From an uncultured Candidatus Saccharibacteria bacterium (GTDB taxonomy: Bacteria; Patescibacteriota; Minisyncoccia; Phycocordibacterales; Phycocordibacteraceae): 64,000 nt of DNA. How positions within the stretch are numbered: the stretch's first letter is position 1; the number at the start of each line of letters is the position of its first letter. The notes below the pieces were generated by a model. It saw nothing but the letters and a program-made list of their open reading frames with translations, searched no databases and had not been told where the DNA came from. The stretch is from contig CAZSKX010000003.1 of the NCBI GenBank assembly GCA_964607655.1, forward strand, positions 4,160-68,159. The letters are read 5' to 3'. Positions 36,301 through 47,161 of this stretch are shown in pieces. Made by a program: the position numbers and the translations under genes.

Positions 36301-36864
36301 TCAAAGCTCTGAGGCACTAATGCCTTGATTAATTCTTTGTATGTATGCAGCCCGCTCCTTGAGAACCTGCTGTAAAAACGATTCTTCGTATCCATTTGGG
36401 TTTACCGCATCTCCCGCATCAAGGCCAAGCAGGCCGAGCAGTCTCAAGACTGCCAGAAGCTCGATTGCTTCATGAAGTTCGACTGGTCGGTCACGCAATG
36501 CGGCAAGGAATCCCCTGACCACCTCGAACACACGTTCGTCACGCGCCTCGTCCGCAACGAGCCTCAAGAGCAGGCCGGTCACGCGCGCAACACGCTCACG
36601 CCCCGGGTGAGGTAGCACTTTGGCCCATTGTTCTTCCAGCACTGCCCCGACGACTCGCCATCCCTCCTTTCCTTGCACGAGCATCACCTCACTTTCAGAA
36701 AGCGTCGTCAGGCCATGAGCAAGTTTCGCCCCTGGCTTTCTGATCCCCTGGGCTCGTGCACGCACCAGTCCGACCGTCGGTGTAAGTAGCGTAACAAGTG
36801 AGTTGGCTTCGCCGAGCGAGGTACGCGCAAGAACAATCCCTCGCGTATCGTATTTATGCCGCAT
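36301..36864 (-). CDS. recO: DNA repair protein RecO (short form)
   Basis: N-terminal OB fold '[36 protein letters not shown]'. Confidence 0.55.
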
Positions 36865-39800
36865 CGCGTACGAGGTTAAACCGTTTCTCTCCCGTCGAGA
36901 GTGTTACCCCGTACTTCCCTCCTTCGACCACTTCCGTACGTACTTTGTCGGTAGGAGCCAGCTGCTCTTGCTTACGCGCGTCTGCAATCGCACGGGCGAA
37001 CTCTCGCTCATCGCCCTCTTGTACAAGCTCGGGGGTAAGCACCGTGTCGAGCGAAAGCGTCTCGCCCACGCTTACCTGCTTCACATTGATCTCCTCGGCG
37101 AGCACCGCAGCGAGCTCGAGCGGAAGTCCTCCATTGATGGTGACGCTCGCGAGCGGCTGGCGCACCTTGATCCCTGCCTTCTGGCGCAGCTGGAGCGCTT
37201 CTGAGGCAAGTGCCCGAACGCGAGCCATCTCGCCGACAAGATCGACCTTCGGTGCTGTTTTGAAAAGTTTCGTGAGCGTAAACGCCTCCCGCTTAGGCTC
37301 TGGCCACGCAGCTAAGTGCACACTGATCGGATCGCTCTCTTCACGCACCGAGCGGAAGATCTCTTCGGCGAGGAAAGGTGAGAAGGGGGCGAGTAGAAGC
37401 GCGCATGTCCGAAGCGTCGTGCGAAGGGTCTCGAGCGCCGCACTATCACCCTCTCGAGCTCGATCGCGCACTCGCCGCACATACCACTGCGACAAGTCTT
37501 CGGCGAGTGCTGCCACTCCTCGCGACGCTTCAAAGAGCTGATAGTGGTCGAGAGCCTCCGTCACTTCGTAGACGGCCTTCTCTAACCGCGCCTCCATCCA
37601 CTGGTCAAGGATCGTAGGGGTTGCTTCGACACGTGGAACCTCCTTAAAGAGGTCGTAAAACTTTGTACTGTTGTCGAGCCACGAGAGCACCTTCGCGGCC
37701 TCCTTCACCGTCTTCGGGTCAAAGTTCTTCGAGTCACCCGCCTGGCTCACGCTGTACATCCAGAAGCGGAGCGCATCGACACCGTACCGGTCGATCTCAT
37801 CCATCGGGTCAGTCACGTTCCCTTTCGACTTACTCATCTTCTGACCGTTCGCGTCGAGGAGATGGCCGAGACAAATCACGTTTTTAAATGGCGCTCCGCG
37901 TCCAGCGAGTACGCCGACGGCAAGGAGCGTGTAGAACCACCCACGCGTCTGGTCGATCGCTTCAGAGATAAAATCCGCAGGATACGCTACCTGCTTCATA
38001 TACTGCTCGAGCGTTTGCTCCCCGCGCTCTTTCGCCGCCTGAGCGAAGGGCATCGCGCCGGAGTCAAACCATACGTCCATCACCTCTTTAACTCGGCGGA
38101 GCTCAGTCCCCTTCTCGCTCACGAGCACCACGTCGTCGATATACGGCCGGTGCAGATCAAGCTCATAATTTTCATTGTGTGGCAGCGGAACGAAGTCAAA
38201 CTCGGCGACTTCTGCGAATTTAGCGCTACTAATGACCTTATTTAGGATCTCATTTGCCGCAATTGCGTCAGCTCCTTCAACGAGGACCGCGAACGACTCA
38301 AAGGCCACGCCGTGCGTAACGATAAGCACCTTTTCGTTCTTCGTCTTCTCCTCTAGTTCGTATACAAAAGATCCCAATCGGTTTTTGGCGTCTGCGTAAC
38401 TCTCTTCACCCCCCGGAACTAGATCGAGGTAGCCGTGAGTCTTCTTCCACGCCCAAAAAGCCTCGTGGGCACCCGGCTTGTTCTCTCCATCAAACTCTCC
38501 GAAATCAAACTCCCGTAGCCGGTCATCGTACGCGATCGCTTCTTTAGGGAAACCGAGACTCGTCGCAACCATCTCTGCCGTCTCTTTGGTGCGCAGGAGC
38601 GGCGAAGCGTAGATCTTTGTGATGCCCATCGTTTTAAGTTCTTCGATACTTGCCCTCACCTGCTCCTTCCCTTTTTCAGTCAAACCATTTGGCGTGCCGA
38701 TCTTCGAATCAAAAAACTTCTTTGCGTTCCCTTCGGCTTCGCCGTGACGCATTAGGAAGTACTGGTTGCCCGATTTCTTTGTGTGCTTCTTAAGTTCGTC
38801 GATTGAACCAGCAAGCGCCTGTTCGCTCCCGTCAGCACTCATCCAGACCGGAAGCGGTGTCCCCCAGTACCGCTCGCGACTGATCGCCCACTCCTTTGCG
38901 TTCGTGAGCCACTCGCCCATGCGCCCGTCGCGAATATGTTCTGGTTCCCAGTTGACCTTCTTGTTTTCTGCCACGAGCGTTCCTCGCAGGTCGTGAATGC
39001 GGATATACCACGAGTCCCGTGCGTAGTAGATGAGGCGAGTCTTGCAACGCCAGCAGAAGGGGTAGGTGTGCGTGTACGATTCTTTTTTAAATAAAATGCC
39101 CTGAGTCTGGAGATTCTTAAGGATCTCGACCGCCGTACTTTCTTCGATCACCGCACGCCCGGTAAGGAAGTCGGTTCCTTCGACATACTTCCCTTCAGGA
39201 TTTACCAAGTGAACCTTCGGTAGGCCGCGATCGCTGCCGAGGTCGAAGTCTTCTTGGCCATACATCGGCGCGATGTGCACGATGCCCGTACCCTCGTCAG
39301 TCGTGACGAAATCAGCATCATATACCGCATACGCGTGCTTAAACTTCGCGCGTTCTTCTTCGCGCGCGACCTCCTGGGCAAAGGCATAGACCGGCTTGTA
39401 GCGCTTCCCGATGAGCGCCTCCGCGAGCACATCCCCTGTGCGCTTCCACTCGGCTCCGAGCACCGCCTCAGCGCGTGCATCTGCGAGGATGACGTGCGTG
39501 CCGTCCTTCTCGTATTTACCGTATGAAATATTCTTTCCGATCGCGAGCGCGACGTTCCCGGGAAGCGTCCACGGCGTCGTGGTCCAGGCGAGCAAGAAGG
39601 TGCCCGGCTCACCCATGAGCTCAAACTTCACCATCACGGTGATGTCCTTCACCTCCTCGTAGCCCTGCGCGAGCTCGTGCGACGAGAGTGAGGTTCCACA
39701 GCGCGAACACCACGGCACCACGCGGTAGTCCTTATAGAGCCGGCCCTCCTTCGCGATATGCGCCATGATGCGCCACACCACCTCGATGTACGAGTTGTCG

Positions 39801-40249
39801 TAGGTGAAGTAGGCGTTCTTTGCGTCGACCCAGTAGCCGATGCGTCGCGTTACGTTCGCCCACAGGTCGATATAGGTCGCTGCCGTCTCACGACACTTTT
39901 TATTAAATGCGGCGATGCCGTACTTCTCGATATCTGGCTTACCGGAAAACCCAAGCTCCTTCTCAACCTGTAGCTCGACCGGGAGTCCGTGCGTATCCCA
40001 GCCCGCGCGACGGGGGACGTGATACCCACGCATCGTCTTATAGCGTGGAATCGCATCCTTGAAAGCGCGCGTCTCGAAGTGGCCCATGTGCGGCTTACCG
40101 TTTGCACCCGGCGGACCTTCGTAGAAAACAAACTCGCCCATGGGCGACGGCTTCTCGAGTGACTTCTCGAAGATCCTCTCACGCTCCCAAAACTCAAGCA
40201 CCGCCTCTTCGCGCTTGGCTGTTTCTGACTTCTCGGGCGCGTCGGCCAT
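36854..40249 (-). CDS. ileS: isoleucyl-tRNA synthetase carrying an inserted histidine-phosphatase (PGAM-family) domain
   Basis: HIGH region '[13 protein letters not shown]', editing-domain '[11 protein letters not shown]', '[14 protein letters not shown]', and 'KMSKSKGN'. Between '[13 protein letters not shown]' and 'HRPYIDD' lies a roughly 190-aa segment '[11 protein letters not shown]...[11 protein letters not shown]...LIVTHG', a His-phosphatase fold. Confidence 0.9.
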
Positions 40250-42578: not shown

Positions 42579-43307
42579 TCATGGGTTTTTGAGTGCTGCT
42601 TGCAATGTATCCTTACTGTAACGCTCGGGCACATACCCGTCAATCGAGCGTATGTTTGCTTCATAACGCAGGTCACTCCCATCAATATTCTTAACGATCA
42701 GATCGACTGTGATTCGATCCCCAAACTCCGATTTGAGCTTGTTAACATTTTCTCGTGCTTGAAAGTATTGTTCGACAAACGAATCTCTCGGTATCACCCG
42801 ACCCTCTCGCTGCTCACGTGCCTGAGCGAACTTCCAAGCCTGCAACGGGTCTTGATACACATAGAGGATCTGTACGAGCCGCTCCTTCTCTAGACTTCGC
42901 TCGATGTTCTCTCGAGCTCGCTCAAGGTTGGAGAGTGTCCCATCAAAGACGTAGCTCTGATGATTATGGAGGGCCAGGTCCTGCATCTTATCGGCAAGAA
43001 TAGACGTCGCACCCTGAAAGAGGCGTGAATTCGATCCGTTATATTCTTTGAACTCCTCTCGCAACTCATCTGCGTCTATCCGCAATACGGCATCCCTCCG
43101 CCCTGCGAGCCGCTCAATAAGCCGGAATGATGACTCGGTTTTACCCGCCCCTGGCGATCCCGCCATAAAGACCGAGACCGGCTGGGCGTCGGGCGGAAAG
43201 AGATTGATATCGGTGCGCCTCTTGGCAATAGCTACTTTATTTTTGTTCGCCTTTGCAAAAGCCAGCGCTTCTTCTTGGATCCGCCGGTCCTCTTCGGTCA
43301 TGCTCAC
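42579..43307 (-). CDS. zeta-toxin-like P-loop kinase (PF06414-like)
   Basis: Walker A 'FMAGSPGAGKTE' in a roughly 240-aa zeta/PezT-like architecture. Confidence 0.6.
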   Translation of the reverse strand: MSMTEEDRRIQEEALAFAKANKNKVAIAKRRTDINLFPPDAQPVSVFMAGSPGAGKTESSFRLIERLAGRRDAVLRIDADELREEFKEYNGSNSRLFQGATSILADKMQDLALHNHQSYVFDGTLSNLERARENIERSLEKERLVQILYVYQDPLQAWKFAQAREQREGRVIPRDSFVEQYFQARENVNKLKSEFGDRITVDLIVKNIDGSDLRYEANIRSIDGYVPERYSKDTLQAALKNP

Positions 43308-43384
43308 ATTCTACTCCAGGCCCCACCACTTTCCCGCCCCGTCTTCCACCTCCAGACTGTGCTCTTAGTCTTAAGGGTCATAAG

Positions 43385-43972
43385 TCATTTTGTCACTATA
43401 ACCGTCCCCACAAGCTCCACGTGTTTGTTCAGCAAATAATTTGCTACCCGCGGCAATTCATCATAGATATCAATCGATCCATTCGTAATGATCTGCTTTG
43501 GCTTTCTTTTGCCGTCAACTTTGTCTATTACGTAGCGGTACCTCACACCAATCGAGATCACCGAGATGATGCCTTGGGCGTCAACCGAGACAGAAACTCC
43601 TGATCTGCCTCGATGGGCTATGTACTGTCTCATGGCCTCTAAAATTGAAAACTCGGAAGAATGATCAATTTGCTCCCAAAACAAAAAAAGATTCCTTGAA
43701 TTTTGCTCAAGCTCCTTCTTGAAAGAAGGATTCCAAGAGACTTGATAAGGCGCTCTGTTAAGGCCTGATTGGATGTTGATAATCTGCAACATCATTTGGG
43801 AAGCCGCGTGCAATTCAAATATGCACGCATCCAAAAAATAATAGAATTCATTCTGTATTGAGGTTCTCTTCCGAGGATCGAATTCTTTGCTTCGCAACTT
43901 TTCAAAAAAGAAACGGGCTGCATCAATTTTAGTATTGAAAGCTTCAGACAAAGATTCCACTGTCTCGACCAT
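43385..43972 (-). CDS. hypothetical protein (195 aa), AT-rich, upstream partner of zeta-like kinase
   Basis: I recognise no motifs. Its codon composition resembles the foreign island. Confidence 0.4.
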   Translation of the reverse strand: MVETVESLSEAFNTKIDAARFFFEKLRSKEFDPRKRTSIQNEFYYFLDACIFELHAASQMMLQIINIQSGLNRAPYQVSWNPSFKKELEQNSRNLFLFWEQIDHSSEFSILEAMRQYIAHRGRSGVSVSVDAQGIISVISIGVRYRYVIDKVDGKRKPKQIITNGSIDIYDELPRVANYLLNKHVELVGTVIVTK

Positions 43973-44016: not shown

Positions 44017-45180
44017 CTATCGGTTCCCCTTTGCTCGATTATGCGTTTTGCAAAGCATCTGGCAGTTTGCCGCATCTGTCGCCCCGCCCTTACTCCAGGC
44101 CGCCACGTGATCAGCGTCCATGTCGGCCAGACCCCAGATCTTTTCTTTATTGGCGTCGTGTCCCATTGCACACAGCGGGCAATTTGATTCTCCCTTCTCC
44201 TTGGTCGCTGCAGTCTGCGCCTCATAGACTGAGCGCTTGGTCGCCTCGTCAAACATGCGCACGTCCAGCAGCTTGGTATCCACTTCACCACCCAATACGT
44301 ACTCAAAAATCCCTTTTCGACTCTTGACGTGCGCATCTCCATAGAGGCGTTGAACCGCTGCGGAAACTTTCGCAGGATCGTATGATTGCTTGTGATACGT
44401 CTTATATAGTCGATTCCACTCGAGTCCCTTCATTTCACTCTCAACGTCGATAAACGTCGTCGATACCCAATTTATCACCGTATCGAAATGTTTCTTCAGG
44501 CCAGTAATATCAGCATCTTGTCGGTGCTGGCTCATATAGCTATCAATCGCTCCATCAGAAACCCAGTCGAGGGCTTGCTCGAGATAAGCCTGGCGCTTCA
44601 CCTCACCTGAAATATAGGCACTCCACTTCTGGACGTTCGCATTCTGGCTGTTACTGAACTCCTCGCGCGCACGTGTCACAAACGGACCAGAGTACACGGC
44701 ATTCAATATCTCTTGCTCCGTTAGAGGGACTCCGGCAATATTGATCGTCCTGAACCAGTCTTTGATTTCAGGCTCTTCGCCCTCGCATATATATATGAGC
44801 AATTTCGTATTCAAGATCATCTCTCGTTGTACATCGGCCATGCCAGTGTAGTATTGCTCGTGCCCATTTTGATCCTTCACAGCAAACTTTCCAGTTACAA
44901 ACCGGCCAATACTGGTAATGCGCTGCTGTCCGTCGAGAACCTCGAGCTTCTTCTCGCCGGTCCGATTGAAATACATCACACCAATTGGATAGCCTTTTAC
45001 AATAGAATCGACCACTCCCACGTCACGCTTGCCATCGGCGTAGATGTAGTTGCGCTGGTACTCAGGCTGGATCGTGAGCGTGCCCGATAGACCAAAGAGC
45101 CCCTTGCCTTCTAGCTCATTGTACTCAAAGCCATCGACGACTTCTCGAATTGTAATGTCTGTTTTCAGTGCAGTATTCAT
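44017..45180 (-). CDS. DUF262 (ParB-like, DGQQR motif) + C-terminal HNH nuclease; GmrSD-like/type IV-like restriction endonuclease, short form
   Basis: 'LEVLDGQQRITSI' DUF262 signature and a C-terminal HNH 'CPLCAMGHD...DHVAAWSKGG...NCQMLCKTHNRAKGN'. Confidence 0.7.
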   Translation of the reverse strand: MNTALKTDITIREVVDGFEYNELEGKGLFGLSGTLTIQPEYQRNYIYADGKRDVGVVDSIVKGYPIGVMYFNRTGEKKLEVLDGQQRITSIGRFVTGKFAVKDQNGHEQYYTGMADVQREMILNTKLLIYICEGEEPEIKDWFRTINIAGVPLTEQEILNAVYSGPFVTRAREEFSNSQNANVQKWSAYISGEVKRQAYLEQALDWVSDGAIDSYMSQHRQDADITGLKKHFDTVINWVSTTFIDVESEMKGLEWNRLYKTYHKQSYDPAKVSAAVQRLYGDAHVKSRKGIFEYVLGGEVDTKLLDVRMFDEATKRSVYEAQTAATKEKGESNCPLCAMGHDANKEKIWGLADMDADHVAAWSKGGATDAANCQMLCKTHNRAKGNR

Positions 45181-46286
45181 GTCGTAGTTCTTCTATGTTT
45201 AACAAACAATCTCTTAAATGTCTCCTTGCCGTTTACATAGGTGCTTCTGCCGTAAACGCCCTCAGCATCTTGACTTACGCCTCGGTTGGCGCCAACGATC
45301 TCAAATTGGCTTGGTGAATACTTGTCGAGGAAATTTATCGGTACGCCCATAACGCCCTGGTAATCCTTGGGTATCGCTGCAATATAAGGTACGTCGATGG
45401 CATCATAGTTGTCATATCTGTCGTAAGCTGACTTTCCTCTCATTTTTTTATTAAATTTCAAATTCTCCTCGAGACTCATCAGGTCTAATGGCAAGTGTCG
45501 ACGCCCATGATCGAGATTCGTATACCACCTGACGCCCATTACTCGCTGATAATACTTTCCTTCCCGAACCTCGCCGGTGAATTTAGACATGTCTACAGTT
45601 GTTTTTGGCACTTCAAACTCCCTATCCCCACTCGAAATACTTGGTCCAAGCCACATCAAATTCGATTTAATGAGCGGAAAAATCTCTGTATATGTAATAG
45701 CGTTTATATGCCCGATAATTAAATATTGTTTATCAAAATTTATCAGTTGTGCCACATAGGGACGAAACAGGCTAAATGGAGGGTTCGTGACAACAATGTC
45801 GGATTCTTTAAGCAATTCGATGCATTCCCGACTTCGGAAGTCGCCGTCGCCCTCTAGCGGCGACCATTCATTGTTTTTATTTGCTTTCAATTGCTGCGCG
45901 ATATCCTGCAAAGTGAAAGACCCATCACCATCCACATCGCCGACTTCGTTGATAATGAACTTATTGGCGGTAATTTTTGGTCGGCCTTTGACGGGTTCGA
46001 GCGTCACGTCATCTCCAAATAGTCCGAGCTGTGTATTCGCAACAGGCGACGGTTTGTAGCTCGTTGTAATAAGCCGCTTTAGCCCAAGGCGTTTGAAATT
46101 AAGTACGAAGTAGCGAAAGAAATTGCTCTCGAAAGGGTCGTCGCAGTTGCAGTAGATAACCTTATCCTTAAAGGTGCTGGAATCGAACTCGAGATATGCC
46201 TCGATCTCTTTTTGAATATCGCTGTACTGCGTATAGAACTCGTCATTCTTTACCTTTTTGGCATTGGTGAGGTTACTGTTGGCCAT
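45177..46286 (-). CDS. N6-adenine DNA methyltransferase, EcoRI-methylase-like family
   Basis: 'IVVTNPPFSL' motif IV (NPPF) and an N-terminal 'DEFYTQYSDI' region. A 4-nt overlap with the downstream nuclease gene suggests an operon. Confidence 0.6.
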   Translation of the reverse strand: MANSNLTNAKKVKNDEFYTQYSDIQKEIEAYLEFDSSTFKDKVIYCNCDDPFESNFFRYFVLNFKRLGLKRLITTSYKPSPVANTQLGLFGDDVTLEPVKGRPKITANKFIINEVGDVDGDGSFTLQDIAQQLKANKNNEWSPLEGDGDFRSRECIELLKESDIVVTNPPFSLFRPYVAQLINFDKQYLIIGHINAITYTEIFPLIKSNLMWLGPSISSGDREFEVPKTTVDMSKFTGEVREGKYYQRVMGVRWYTNLDHGRRHLPLDLMSLEENLKFNKKMRGKSAYDRYDNYDAIDVPYIAAIPKDYQGVMGVPINFLDKYSPSQFEIVGANRGVSQDAEGVYGRSTYVNGKETFKRLFVKHRRTTT

Positions 46287-46516: not shown

Positions 46517-47161
46517 CTATACGCTGAAGATGTTAATTCTTCGGGCTGCCCGCAAGGTGTAGTCATTCTTTTTCAAAAAATCTTCTATCCCCGCAATCGC
46601 CTTCTTGGGTGCCATGGTTGTCATAAAGTCGTCGAGGGATTCGAAGCGAAATATCGTCTCGTCCGGTATCTCAGCAATTTCTGCATAGCCTTGGTGGGTT
46701 TTCAGAGCATTGTAGGCAGCTCGCTTCTCTTGTCTCTCGTCACCGTCGCATGCGTCAAAGGCAATCTCCGCATCAAAAAAGGTTCCTTCTTCGGCTGGTT
46801 CGAGAAAAATGATATGGCCACCTTTTTTCGTGACGCGAATCGCTTCGTCAATCGCCCTCGGCATTTCTTCAATCGGCACATGGTGCAAGGAAAGAGTAAA
46901 TAAAACCGCATCGAACTGCTCGTCCGGAAAGCCAAGCCTTTCTGCTTTACCAAGTACGTAAGTGATGTTTTGAGCTGCATTGTGCGTCCTGGCCCAATCA
47001 AGGAGCGCAGTATCTGGCTCCATTGCGGTCAGCCAGGCACACTTCTTCGCTATCTCAACCGAACGTGAGCCATTCCCACACCCGATTTCGAGAATAGACT
47101 TCCCGAACAACGGCATCACCGTTTCGATACTGCTCAAATAGTCGTCCTTCAACCTTTTCAT
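46517..47161 (-). CDS. class I SAM-dependent methyltransferase (small-molecule type)
   Basis: Motif I 'ILEIGCGNGSRS' and motif II/III spacing. Confidence 0.7.
   Translation of the reverse strand: MKRLKDDYLSSIETVMPLFGKSILEIGCGNGSRSVEIAKKCAWLTAMEPDTALLDWARTHNAAQNITYVLGKAERLGFPDEQFDAVLFTLSLHHVPIEEMPRAIDEAIRVTKKGGHIIFLEPAEEGTFFDAEIAFDACDGDERQEKRAAYNALKTHQGYAEIAEIPDETIFRFESLDDFMTTMAPKKAIAGIEDFLKKNDYTLRAARRINIFSV

What the first reader, a model, noticed from the sequence alone, without database searches (positions are those of the whole stretch)
44017..46286. Operonic EcoRI-family m6A methyltransferase + short DUF262-HNH nuclease: possible non-canonical restriction-modification pair
The MTase stop and nuclease start overlap by 4 nt (45177-45180), implying co-translation. 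DUF262+HNH proteins (GmrSD/BrxU-like) are usually modification-DEPENDENT type IV enzymes and are not normally paired with a cognate MTase. A 387-aa DUF262-HNH fusion directly coupled to an orphan-type EcoRI-like MTase is an unusual architecture. It may be a new type II-like R-M system, or an MTase-guarded type IV enzyme.
Basis: partly seen in the sequence, partly recalled or inferred. Interest (0 to 1): 0.7.

Follow-up and report, generated by a model that had tools for sequence, protein, structure and literature searches.

The report
MTase-coupled DUF262-HNH restriction cassette
The two overlapping genes are real and belong to a very widespread but biochemically uncharacterised restriction-modification cassette, in which an EcoRI-family adenine methylase with a swappable specificity segment is always paired with a nearly invariant GmrSD-like nuclease; this suggests the nuclease has no matching sequence specificity of its own.

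Summary
A 369-aa EcoRI-family m6A methyltransferase (45177-46286, minus strand) and a 387-aa DUF262 + HNH protein (44017-45180, minus strand) overlap in ATGA.

The pair is not a rarity. It is a conserved, horizontally mobile cassette found in Patescibacteria, other phyla, plasmids and phages. PADLOC's Type II R-M models already match both proteins over their full length. I found no biochemical characterisation. One paper calls a homologous pair a possible "novel restriction-modification system".

Evidence for restriction-modification logic:
- The order M then R is kept down to about 35% nuclease identity.
- No solitary nuclease was seen.
- Phage contigs carry the methylase alone.
- In about a third of loci, defence genes are inserted between M and R.

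Evidence against an ordinary Type II pair:
- The methylase carries a modular hypervariable segment with 17 types in 71 systems; M.EcoRI shares one of these types.
- The nuclease stays uniform and does not track that segment.
- A gut-bacterial relative switches methylase C-termini through a (GACA)n tract while its nuclease is identical.
- Two plasmids keep an intact nuclease beside a broken methylase.

I therefore favour a Type III-like scheme: the methylase supplies specificity, and the ParB-fold NTPase-HNH protein is the restriction subunit.

Novelty: new variant of a known kind. Interest: 0.62.

The parts
45177..46286 (-). EcoRI-family (gamma-type) N6-adenine DNA methyltransferase, 369 aa
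   Evidence: PF13651 E=1.6e-124. PADLOC MTase_II PDLC03297 E=1.5e-105, full length. About 51% identical to M.EcoRI outside the variable segment; tblastn of the whole protein gives about 41% to the EcoRI plasmids.
45774..45785 (-). Methylase catalytic motif IV, N168-P-P-F171, within TNPPFS
   Evidence: Read from the sequence. TNPPFS is present in 71 of 71 related methylases.
45531..45650 (-). Hypervariable modular segment of the methylase (aa 213-252), the putative target-recognition cassette; the window carries 'type 4'
   Evidence: There are 17 discrete sequence types among 71 systems. The M.EcoRI segment is 64-74% identical to type 2 but 19-33% to the other types, while the rest of the protein is about 50% identical to all.
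45177..45180 (-). ATGA stop/start overlap between methylase and nuclease (translational coupling)
   Evidence: The same overlap of 4 nt, or a spacing of 1 to 11 nt, occurs in about 50 of 75 related loci.
44017..45180 (-). DUF262 (ParB/Srx-fold NTPase) + helical middle + zinc-finger HNH nuclease, 387 aa; the putative restriction subunit
44692..45075 (-). DUF262/GmrSD_N domain (aa 36-163), including D83-G-Q-Q-R87 at 44920-44934
   Evidence: the QR, DGQQR and FxxxN motifs are invariant in 80 sequences spanning 36-100% identity.
44020..44190 (-). HNH nuclease domain with CxxC...CxxxC zinc site (aa 331-387); D357 H358 N372 N381
   Evidence: PF01844. Invariant columns. Structural matches to HNH domains.
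43385..43972 (-). Neighbouring HEPN (Cthe_2314-like) gene, 44 nt downstream of the nuclease; defence-island neighbour, not a conserved part of the cassette
   Evidence: PF18730 E=1.4e-7. No homologue was found in any of the 80 related loci.
42579..43307 (-). Neighbouring zeta-toxin-family kinase gene; defence/TA island neighbour
   Evidence: PF06414 E=1.7e-37. A 35%-identical homologue also lies just downstream of the nuclease in L080.

Best explanation
This is a two-gene restriction-modification cassette acquired by horizontal transfer into a small defence island of a probable Patescibacteria/Saccharibacteria genome. Host identity is inferred from the closest relatives. The EcoRI-family methylase marks host DNA with m6A at a motif set by its swappable variable segment (aa ~213-252, plus two smaller variable patches). 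For this 'type 4' segment the motif is unknown and is probably not GAATTC. The downstream, translationally coupled DUF262-HNH protein is the restriction subunit. It combines a ParB/Srx-fold NTP-binding switch, a helical middle region and a zinc-finger HNH nuclease, and it attacks DNA that lacks the mark. The nuclease is almost invariant while the methylase specificity segment is shuffled. I therefore infer that the nuclease has no matching sequence specificity of its own. It would get its targeting either from the methylase, as in Type III (Mod/Res) and Type I systems, or by reading the presence or absence of m6A independently of sequence context through its DUF262 sensor domain. Shown here: domains, motifs, fold, gene linkage, modular variation and lack of co-variation. 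Inferred: that methylation protects, NTP dependence, a physical or functional dependence of the nuclease on the methylase, and the cleavage mode.
For: (1) Linkage. 75 of 80 nuclease-anchored genome loci have the EcoRI-family methylase upstream on the same strand. The remaining 5 end too early, and in two of them (L040, L073) the available upstream sequence holds the same cargo genes seen between M and R elsewhere. The pairing persists on plasmids down to about 35% nuclease identity and in Flavobacterium phage laban6-1 gp07-gp08.
(2) PADLOC Type II MTase and REase models match both proteins over their full length.
(3) Phage contigs carry close homologues of the methylase alone: L090 has it next to terminase genes, and L092 has it between gp59-like and gp32-like genes with a 44-aa remnant of the nuclease. 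This is the classic anti-restriction pattern.
(4) In about 24 of 75 loci, 0.5-3 kb of other defence or mobile-element genes sit between M and R (RhuM, DUF2130, Bro-N, T5orf172, HEPN_AbiU2, AntA, Fic, Dam, AAA_15/21, AIPR), and both genes are still retained.
(5) There are 17 discrete types of the methylase variable segment in 71 systems. A nuclease cluster at >=95% identity has 3 types, and a cluster at >=90% identity (17 members) has 7. In a regression, nuclease identity depends on the methylase core (coefficient 0.63) but not on the variable segment (0.016).
(6) The variable segment behaves as a specificity cassette. M.EcoRI shares it with type 2 members (64-74% identity) against 19-33% for other types, while the rest of the protein is about 50% identical to all.
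(7) In a homologous Ruminococcus-type locus, a (GACA)n tract inside the methylase gene varies between metagenomes (n = 5 to 27). It selects among three complete alternative C-terminal modules while the nuclease protein is identical.
(8) The methylase is disrupted but the nuclease ORF is intact on a Chryseobacterium plasmid (frameshifts) and a Microbacterium plasmid (IS256 insertion).
(9) A natural in-frame M-DUF262-HNH fusion exists in a TGA=Trp organism.
(11) In Sulfitobacter indolifex, which carries a homologous pair, GAATTC is not methylated, and a strain-specific asymmetric m6A motif, GGCATC, is unassigned (PMC9025767).
Against: There is no experiment on any member, so protection by methylation, NTP dependence and any M-R interaction are all inferred. 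M.EcoRI, a family member, works as an independent monomeric Type II methylase with a separate PD-(D/E)XK endonuclease, so the methylase family does not by itself imply a Mod-like role. The two cases with M broken and R intact could be sequencing errors, or silenced operons in which the promoter or the coupling was lost. The fusion is a single contig, and its methylase motifs are degenerate (FPSF instead of NPPF), so it may be decaying. No target-site avoidance was detectable. The assignment of GGCATC to the Sulfitobacter methylase is unproven. A few amino-acid changes in the nuclease could in principle retune specificity without being visible at 88-95% identity.
Confidence: 0.55

Rival explanations
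1. It is an ordinary Type II restriction-modification system. The DUF262-HNH protein would be an independent, sequence-specific endonuclease recognising the same site as the methylase, and the DUF262 domain would be just its DNA-binding or regulatory part.
For: PADLOC REase_II and MTase_II models match over the full length. The M-first order with translational coupling is common in Type II systems. The methylase family includes M.EcoRI, which partners an independent endonuclease. The cassette sits on small plasmids, as classical Type II systems do.
Against: The nuclease is uniformly conserved, more so than the methylase (75% against 67% mean identity), and has no variable segment. Nucleases that are 95% identical pair with methylases whose specificity segments are 11% identical. 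The (GACA)n switch changes the methylase C-terminus while the nuclease stays identical. The NTPase motifs of DUF262 are invariant, which a Mg2+-only Type II enzyme would not need. Cases with the methylase disrupted and the nuclease intact exist.
Confidence: 0.2
2. It is a Type IV (modification-dependent) GmrSD/BrxU-like nuclease that attacks modified phage DNA. The methylase would be either functionally unrelated or a guard that protects host DNA from off-target cutting.
Against: Type IV enzymes are typically solitary, whereas this nuclease is never found without the methylase across 35-100% identity. The protein is 387 aa against 560-590 aa for the Type IV enzymes, and DUF1524 was not detected. 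Phages carry the methylase alone, which would be pointless or harmful if methylation attracted the nuclease.
Confidence: 0.08
3. It follows SspE-like logic. The m6A marks on host DNA would activate the DUF262 NTPase and license the nuclease to act on invading DNA, so that self-modification acts as an activator rather than only as a shield.
Against: Phage-borne solitary methylases fit protection better than activation. There is no direct evidence. SspE works with a five-gene modification module of a different chemistry.
Confidence: 0.1

Closest known systems
Type III restriction-modification systems (Mod/Res, e.g. EcoP15I; phase-variable mod genes of Haemophilus, Neisseria and Mycoplasma)
   Same: The gene order is methylase then nuclease. 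The restriction subunit is conserved while the methylase carries an exchangeable target-recognition segment. A simple-sequence repeat lies inside the methylase gene in one lineage. Loss of the methylase with an intact restriction gene is tolerated. The restriction subunit has an NTP-binding domain. A homologue-bearing strain has an asymmetric candidate motif (PMC9025767).
   Different: The methylase is an EcoRI-family gamma-type enzyme, not a beta-type N6_N4 Mod. The restriction subunit has a ParB/Srx-fold DUF262 and an HNH nuclease instead of an SF2 helicase and a PD-(D/E)XK nuclease. No complex formation or two-site requirement has been shown.
EcoRI Type II system (M.EcoRI + R.EcoRI)
   Same: The methylase is a full-length homologue of M.EcoRI, about 50% identical outside the variable segment, with the DEFYT, CNCDDP, NPPF and C-terminal motifs all shared. 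'Type 2' relatives even share the M.EcoRI variable segment.
   Different: The partner nuclease is unrelated to R.EcoRI. The gene order is M then R with an overlap, not R then M. The window's variable segment is only 23% identical to that of M.EcoRI, so GAATTC specificity is unlikely.
GmrSD / BrxU family Type IV enzymes (DUF262 + DUF1524)
   Different: The protein is about 200 aa shorter. The nuclease domain is PF01844 with a Cys4 zinc site, not DUF1524. It is always encoded with a methylase. Its probable logic is blocking by modification, not dependence on modification.
SspABCD-SspE phosphorothioate-sensing system
   Same: A DNA-modification module is coupled to a DUF262-nuclease effector, and the effector is generic while the modification module defines self.
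   Different: The modification is m6A made by a single methylase, not phosphorothioate made by four proteins. SspE carries DUF1524 and is about 560 residues in the solved chain. Sequence similarity is limited to the DUF262 motifs.

Membership tests
Type II restriction-modification system (classical, independent R and M) | A DNA methyltransferase with intact catalytic and AdoMet motifs | tested here: met
   PF13651 E=1.6e-124; the TNPPFS, DEFYT and CNCDDP motifs are conserved.
Type II restriction-modification system (classical, independent R and M) | An adjacent endonuclease gene with an intact catalytic site, genetically linked to the methylase | tested here: met
   The HNH D357 H358 N372 N381 residues and the zinc cysteines are conserved. 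Linkage holds in 75 of 75 informative loci.
Type II restriction-modification system (classical, independent R and M) | The endonuclease recognises the same sequence as the methylase on its own, so its sequence should change when the methylase specificity changes | tested here: not met
   Nucleases at >=95% identity pair with 3 different variable-segment types. The regression coefficient on the variable segment is 0.016.
Type II restriction-modification system (classical, independent R and M) | Cleavage needs only Mg2+, with no NTP | not testable with these tools
Type III restriction-modification system | The mod gene lies upstream of res, Mod carries an exchangeable TRD, and Res is conserved | tested here: met
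   This is met by analogy only, since the proteins are not homologous to Mod and Res.
Type III restriction-modification system | Res is an SF2 helicase-type ATPase plus a PD-(D/E)XK nuclease; Mod is a beta-class N6_N4 methylase | tested here: not met
   Pfam finds DUF262 + HNH and EcoRI_methylase instead. The structural hits are ParB/Srx and HNH folds.
Type III restriction-modification system | Res is inactive without Mod; sites are asymmetric and hemimethylated; cleavage needs two sites | not testable with these tools
   There are only indirect hints: cases with M broken and R intact, and an unassigned GGCATC motif in S. indolifex (PMC9025767).
GmrSD / BrxU Type IV restriction enzymes | An N-terminal DUF262 (GmrS) domain with the QR, DGQQR and FxxxN motifs | tested here: met
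GmrSD / BrxU Type IV restriction enzymes | A C-terminal DUF1524 (GmrD) nuclease domain | tested here: not met
   No DUF1524 hit at E<=0.01; the C-terminus is PF01844 HNH with a Cys4 zinc site. It belongs to the same His-Me superfamily.
GmrSD / BrxU Type IV restriction enzymes | A stand-alone gene that acts on modified DNA and needs no cognate methylase | tested here: not met
   It is always found with the methylase. Modification dependence itself is not testable here.
EcoRI_methylase family (PF13651) | Full-length similarity to M.EcoRI, including the NPPF motif | tested here: met
EcoRI_methylase family (PF13651) | GAATTC specificity | tested here: inconclusive
   The window's variable segment is 23% identical to that of M.EcoRI, against 64-74% for type 2 members. 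GAATTC is not depleted. No methylome is available.

The most novel reading that the evidence does not exclude
The cassette would represent a distinct, very widespread class of NTP-dependent restriction-modification system. A monomeric gamma-type (EcoRI-family) methylase with an exchangeable recognition cassette would act as the specificity subunit. A ParB/Srx-fold NTP switch fused to an HNH nuclease would act as a generic restriction subunit, making it a helicase-free functional analogue of Type III Res. In some gut Firmicutes the system would be reprogrammed by a three-frame (GACA)n switch that selects among three alternative methylase C-terminal modules.
Probability: 0.4. Interest if true: 0.8.

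Novelty: new variant of a known kind. Interest (0 to 1): 0.62.

Why it matters
If the nuclease really takes its specificity from the methylase, or reads m6A independently of context, this would be a new mechanistic class of restriction-modification system. It would be built from a ParB-fold NTPase, a fold otherwise known from chromosome segregation and from modification-dependent Type IV enzymes.

The family is large. More than 8000 clusters at 90% identity were scored in each of two searches, and there are 434 clusters at 50% identity with E<=1e-30. It is prominent in Patescibacteria, lactic-acid-bacteria plasmids, Enterococcus faecium optrA megaplasmids and a Ruminococcus bromii-type gut bacterium. 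It is currently annotated only as 'DUF262 domain-containing protein' or counted as a generic Type II system.

There are three practical consequences:
- Methylome-to-gene assignment: the variable-segment types should predict motifs, with type 2 probably GAATTC-like.
- Genetic tractability of Patescibacteria and gut anaerobes.
- A possible source of programmable methylase-nuclease pairs.

The (GACA)n three-state switch would be a new kind of phase-variable epigenetic regulator outside Type I and Type III systems.

Tried and rejected
- Target-site avoidance. I computed Markov observed/expected ratios for all 4-mer and 6-mer palindromes in the window and in 850 kb of related loci, and for GAATTC/AATT by variable-segment type. 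No motif stood out: GAATTC O/E was 0.72 in type 2 loci against 0.75-1.06 in the others. This is inconclusive and underpowered.
- The first AlphaFold run used 30 close homologues and failed (pLDDT 45). It was repeated with 80 sequences from two subfamilies (pLDDT 83).
- Sequence searches of the PDB gave only a marginal BrxU hit, E=0.11, on the DGQQR region.
- NCBIfam has no model for either protein.
- I looked for a biochemically characterised member behind PADLOC's REase_II model. The PADLOC papers do not say how the R-M models were built, and eight literature searches found no characterisation. One search was badly designed and uninformative.
- There is no simple-sequence repeat in the window cassette or in the 80 genome loci. 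Phase variation is specific to the Ruminococcus-type lineage.
- The promoter and terminator scan found no more sites than in shuffled sequence.
- An exact-sequence look-up of the window nuclease found nothing on record, so the source genome was not identified directly.
- No tRNA or integrase flanks the island.
- A homing-endonuclease or selfish HNH reading was rejected, because the nuclease is never separate from the methylase and carries an NTPase sensor domain.
Full report
**Observation**

ORF 45177..46286 encodes a 369-aa protein that matches Pfam EcoRI_methylase (PF13651) at E=1.6e-124. ORF 44017..45180 encodes a 387-aa protein with GmrSD_N/DUF262 (aa 36-163, E=7e-21) and a C-terminal HNH domain (PF01844, aa 353-387). 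The methylase stop and the nuclease start share ATGA at 45177-45180. The cassette lies in a stretch of lower G+C (0.45-0.50 against 0.54-0.61 in the flanks). That stretch sits between housekeeping genes (IleRS, ArgRS, SHMT), next to a HEPN gene and a zeta-toxin gene. This is the look of a small, horizontally acquired defence island.

**How common the pair is**

The pair is not an oddity. The best 120 are all about 387 aa and 75-100% identical. An exhaustive search of 50%-identity representatives gives 434 clusters at E<=1e-30.

In 80 loci from species-representative genomes, 75 have the EcoRI-family methylase upstream on the same strand. These are mostly Patescibacteria/Saccharibacteria, plus Chloroflexota, Actinomycetota, Geobacter and Bacteroidota. 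The five exceptions are cut by contig ends. In two of them (L040, L073) the sequence just upstream holds RhuM or Fic/AAA_13 genes, the same cargo seen between M and R elsewhere.

About 50 loci have an overlap of 4 nt or a spacing of 1 to 11 nt. The pair also occurs in these places, with nuclease identity as low as 35%:
- small plasmids of lactic acid bacteria;
- Enterococcus faecium optrA megaplasmids;
- actinobacterial, Moraxella, Aeromonas and Sulfitobacter plasmids;
- the cultured Flavobacterium phage laban6-1 (gp07-gp08).

PADLOC's Type II MTase and REase models match both proteins end to end (E=1.5e-105 and 1.1e-84). Standard defence-finding pipelines therefore already count this as a Type II R-M system. 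NCBIfam has no model, and public annotation reads 'DUF262 domain-containing protein'.

**Literature**

I found no biochemical characterisation. The only explicit mention is for Sulfitobacter indolifex DSM 14862 plasmid pDSM14862_g, which carries a homologous pair (L104). The authors report that GAATTC is not methylated. They also report that a strain-specific m6A motif, GGCATC, has no REBASE match. [quoted passage not shown] A 2025 survey of the ParB-CTPase fold lists ParB-HNH fusions as novel and unstudied (PMC12704722).

**The proteins**

The methylase aligns over its whole length with M.EcoRI, taken from an E. coli EcoRI plasmid where it sits next to R.EcoRI. It shares the DEFYT, CNCDDP, GDFRS, TNPPFS, W.TN.D, YDNYDA, GVMGVPITFL and C-terminal TY.RI.IK motifs.

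For the nuclease, an AlphaFold model built on 80 sequences from two subfamilies (pLDDT 83) shows three parts:
- an N-terminal alpha/beta domain;
- an all-helical middle region (about aa 166-330);
- a beta-beta-alpha HNH domain.

- the three GmrS-type motifs: Q42 R43, D83-G-Q-Q-R87 and F143...N147;
- the HNH residues D357 H358 N372 N381;
- the zinc cysteines C334, C337 and C377. C373 is invariant among the close relatives.

DUF1524, the nuclease domain of GmrSD, BrxU and SspE, is not detected. The protein is also about 200 residues shorter than those enzymes.

**Evidence that methylation protects**

- The nuclease is never seen alone, whereas the methylase family is. It partners R.EcoRI, it occurs next to other genes on Campylobacter and other plasmids, and it occurs alone on phage contigs.
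- In L090 a 61%-identical methylase sits next to small and large terminase genes.
- In L092 a 56%-identical methylase sits between gp59-like and gp32-like genes, followed by a 44-aa remnant of the nuclease N-terminus.

Phages keeping the methylase while losing the nuclease is the classic self-protection pattern. It is hard to reconcile with a nuclease that attacks the methylated state.

In about 24 of 75 loci, 0.5-3 kb of other genes is inserted between M and R, and both are retained. The inserted genes are:
- RhuM (8 loci);
- DUF2130 (4);
- Bro-N (4);
- T5orf172 (3);
- HEPN_AbiU2 (2);
- AntA (2);
- Fic, Dam, AAA_15/21 and AIPR (1 each).

From my own knowledge, such embedding of defence genes is typical of Type I operons.

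**Evidence that this is not an ordinary Type II pair**

Among 71 complete systems the nuclease is more conserved than the methylase (mean pairwise identity 75% against 67%). It has no variable stretch and almost no indels. The methylase has a sharply hypervariable segment at aa ~211-250 and smaller ones at 271-290 and 331-350.

The main segment falls into 17 discrete types flanked by conserved W-L-G and W-x-T-N-L-D-H-G motifs. It behaves as a specificity cassette. M.EcoRI aa 185-226 is 64-74% identical to 'type 2' members but 19-33% identical to other types (window: 23%). The remainder of M.EcoRI is uniformly 48-55% identical to all of them.

The nuclease does not follow this cassette:
- A cluster of three nucleases at >=95% identity carries three types.
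- A cluster at >=90% identity (17 members) carries seven types.
- L002 and L003 have 95%-identical nucleases and 11%-identical segments.
- In a regression, nuclease identity depends on the methylase core (0.63) but not on the variable segment (0.016).

An endonuclease that had to recognise the methylase's site on its own could not stay constant through such swaps.

**Three further observations in relatives**

First, there is a repeat-driven switch in a subfamily whose nuclease (P0184) is named for Ruminococcus bromii by UniRef and is listed in more than 1000 blocks of the assembly collection. There the methylase gene contains a (GACA)n tract. In 11 distinct metagenomic contigs with identical flanks and an identical nuclease protein, the tract length and the resulting frames are:

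| n mod 3 | Contigs | n values |
|---|---|---|
| 0 | 4 | 27, 9, 6, 6 |
| 2 | 2 | 14, 8 |
| 1 | 3 | 7, 7, 19 |

Of the other two contigs, one has a sequence gap in the tract and one has an interrupted tract. Each frame runs into its own complete copy of the conserved C-terminal module...ITYARIVIKRKM...GKETYARILIKRRM or ...KIYNRILIKRRKKDEN. These modules differ in exactly the part that is variable across the family. This is a three-state phase switch of the methylase with a constant nuclease. In known systems such switches belong to Type III mod and Type I hsdS genes, where the restriction subunit cannot act without the methylase.

Second, two plasmids have a disrupted methylase next to an intact nuclease ORF. 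In Chryseobacterium taklimakanense the methylase lies in three frames. In Microbacterium sp. No. 7 an IS256 removed the catalytic N-terminal half.

Third, one contig from a TGA=Trp organism encodes an in-frame methylase-DUF262-HNH fusion with degenerate methylase motifs (FPSF instead of NPPF) but intact nuclease motifs.

Each of these three is weak alone. The causes could be sequencing error, polar silencing or decay. All three point the same way.

**Interpretation**

I consider it very likely (about 0.8) that this is a restriction-modification cassette in which m6A marks self.

I consider it more likely than not that the DUF262-HNH protein is a generic, NTP-regulated restriction subunit without its own matching sequence specificity. 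It would be targeted in one of two ways:
- through the methylase, in the manner of Type III or Type I systems;
- by context-independent sensing of m6A through its DUF262 domain, the domain that senses modifications in GmrSD, BrxU and SspE (PMC12065111).

The data cannot separate these two sub-models. An ordinary Type II reading (0.2), a Type IV enzyme with a guard methylase (0.08) and an SspE-like self-activated effector (0.1) remain possible.

The window's own recognition motif is unknown. Its variable segment (type 4, shared with L001, L051, L065 and L075, and distantly resembling the S. indolifex segment) argues against GAATTC.

**Tests that failed or were inconclusive**

Palindrome and GAATTC avoidance showed nothing distinctive. 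There is no repeat tract in the window cassette. No promoter or terminator signal exceeded chance.

**Verdict**

The cassette is common and already caught by R-M models. It is uncharacterised, and its comparative genomics indicate a non-classical, Type III-like mechanism built on a GmrSD-like fold. I rate it as a new variant of a known kind, with interest 0.62.

Noticed in passing
L097-L101 and L107-L116 (gut metagenome contigs; Ruminococcus bromii-type locus). The methylase gene ends at the nuclease ATG, which is locus position 5001 in L097-L101.: A (GACA)n tract inside the EcoRI-family methylase gene varies from 5 to 27 copies between contigs. Depending on n mod 3, it fuses the gene to one of three complete, paralogous C-terminal modules, while the downstream DUF262-HNH protein stays identical. 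All three frames occur in nature (4, 2 and 3 contigs). It looks like a three-state phase-variable methylase outside Type I and Type III systems.
   Followed up: partly
L102:4001-6067 (ENA contig k141_149627; protein P0302): This is a natural in-frame fusion of an EcoRI-family methylase domain with DUF262-HNH (688 aa), in an organism that reads TGA as Trp: conserved Trp positions are TGA codons. The methylase motifs are degenerate (FPSF instead of NPPF, and DEFYT is lost), while the nuclease motifs are intact.
   Followed up: partly
L011, L019, L020, L022, L029, L033, L034, L041, L042, L046, L049, L050, L052, L054-L056, L058-L063, L066, L075 (between the methylase and the nuclease): In about a third of related loci, 0.5-3 kb of other defence or mobile-element genes is inserted between the methylase and the nuclease. 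The genes are RhuM, DUF2130, Bro-N, T5orf172, HEPN_AbiU2, AntA, Fic/DOC, Dam, AAA_15/21 and AIPR, plus several ORFs with no Pfam hit. The M-R gap appears to be a hotspot for defence cargo.
   Followed up: partly
L085:3041-3980 (Chryseobacterium taklimakanense plasmid) and L106:2137-4004 (Microbacterium sp. No. 7 plasmid B): The methylase is disrupted while the adjacent DUF262-HNH ORF is intact. In L085 it is split across three reading frames. In L106 an IS256 removed its N-terminal catalytic half.
   Followed up: partly
L090:272-1393 and L092:297-1397 (IMG/VR viral contigs): Phage contigs carry close homologues of the methylase without the nuclease. In L090 it sits next to terminase genes. In L092 it sits between gp59-like and gp32-like genes, followed by a 44-aa remnant of the nuclease N-terminus at 1426-1551.
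   Followed up: partly
L103:2486-3466 (M.EcoRI on an E. coli plasmid) compared with L027, L028, L031, L033, L039, L047, L056, L060, L066, L081 and L083: M.EcoRI aa 185-226 is 64-74% identical to the 'type 2' variable segment of methylases that partner DUF262-HNH. The rest of the protein is only about 50% identical. This suggests that these systems, including those on E. faecium optrA megaplasmids and a Pediococcus plasmid, methylate GAATTC or a close relative of it.
   Followed up: partly
window 36854-40249 (-): The isoleucyl-tRNA synthetase (1131 aa) carries a histidine-phosphatase-superfamily domain (PF00300, E=8e-34) inserted at aa 498-661, inside the class I catalytic core. This is an unusual domain insertion for an aminoacyl-tRNA synthetase.
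   Followed up: no
window 42579-43972 (-): A HEPN (Cthe_2314-like) gene and a zeta-toxin-family kinase gene lie directly downstream of the nuclease on the same strand. A zeta-toxin homologue also follows the nuclease in L080. They could form a toxin or abortive-infection module sharing the island.
   Followed up: no
window 46517-47161 (-) and L081:2640-3302: A class I SAM-dependent methyltransferase (Methyltransf_11) lies just upstream of the cassette in the window. A weakly similar one (25% identity over 125 aa) lies upstream of the cassette on the E. faecium plasmid. This may be coincidence.
   Followed up: no
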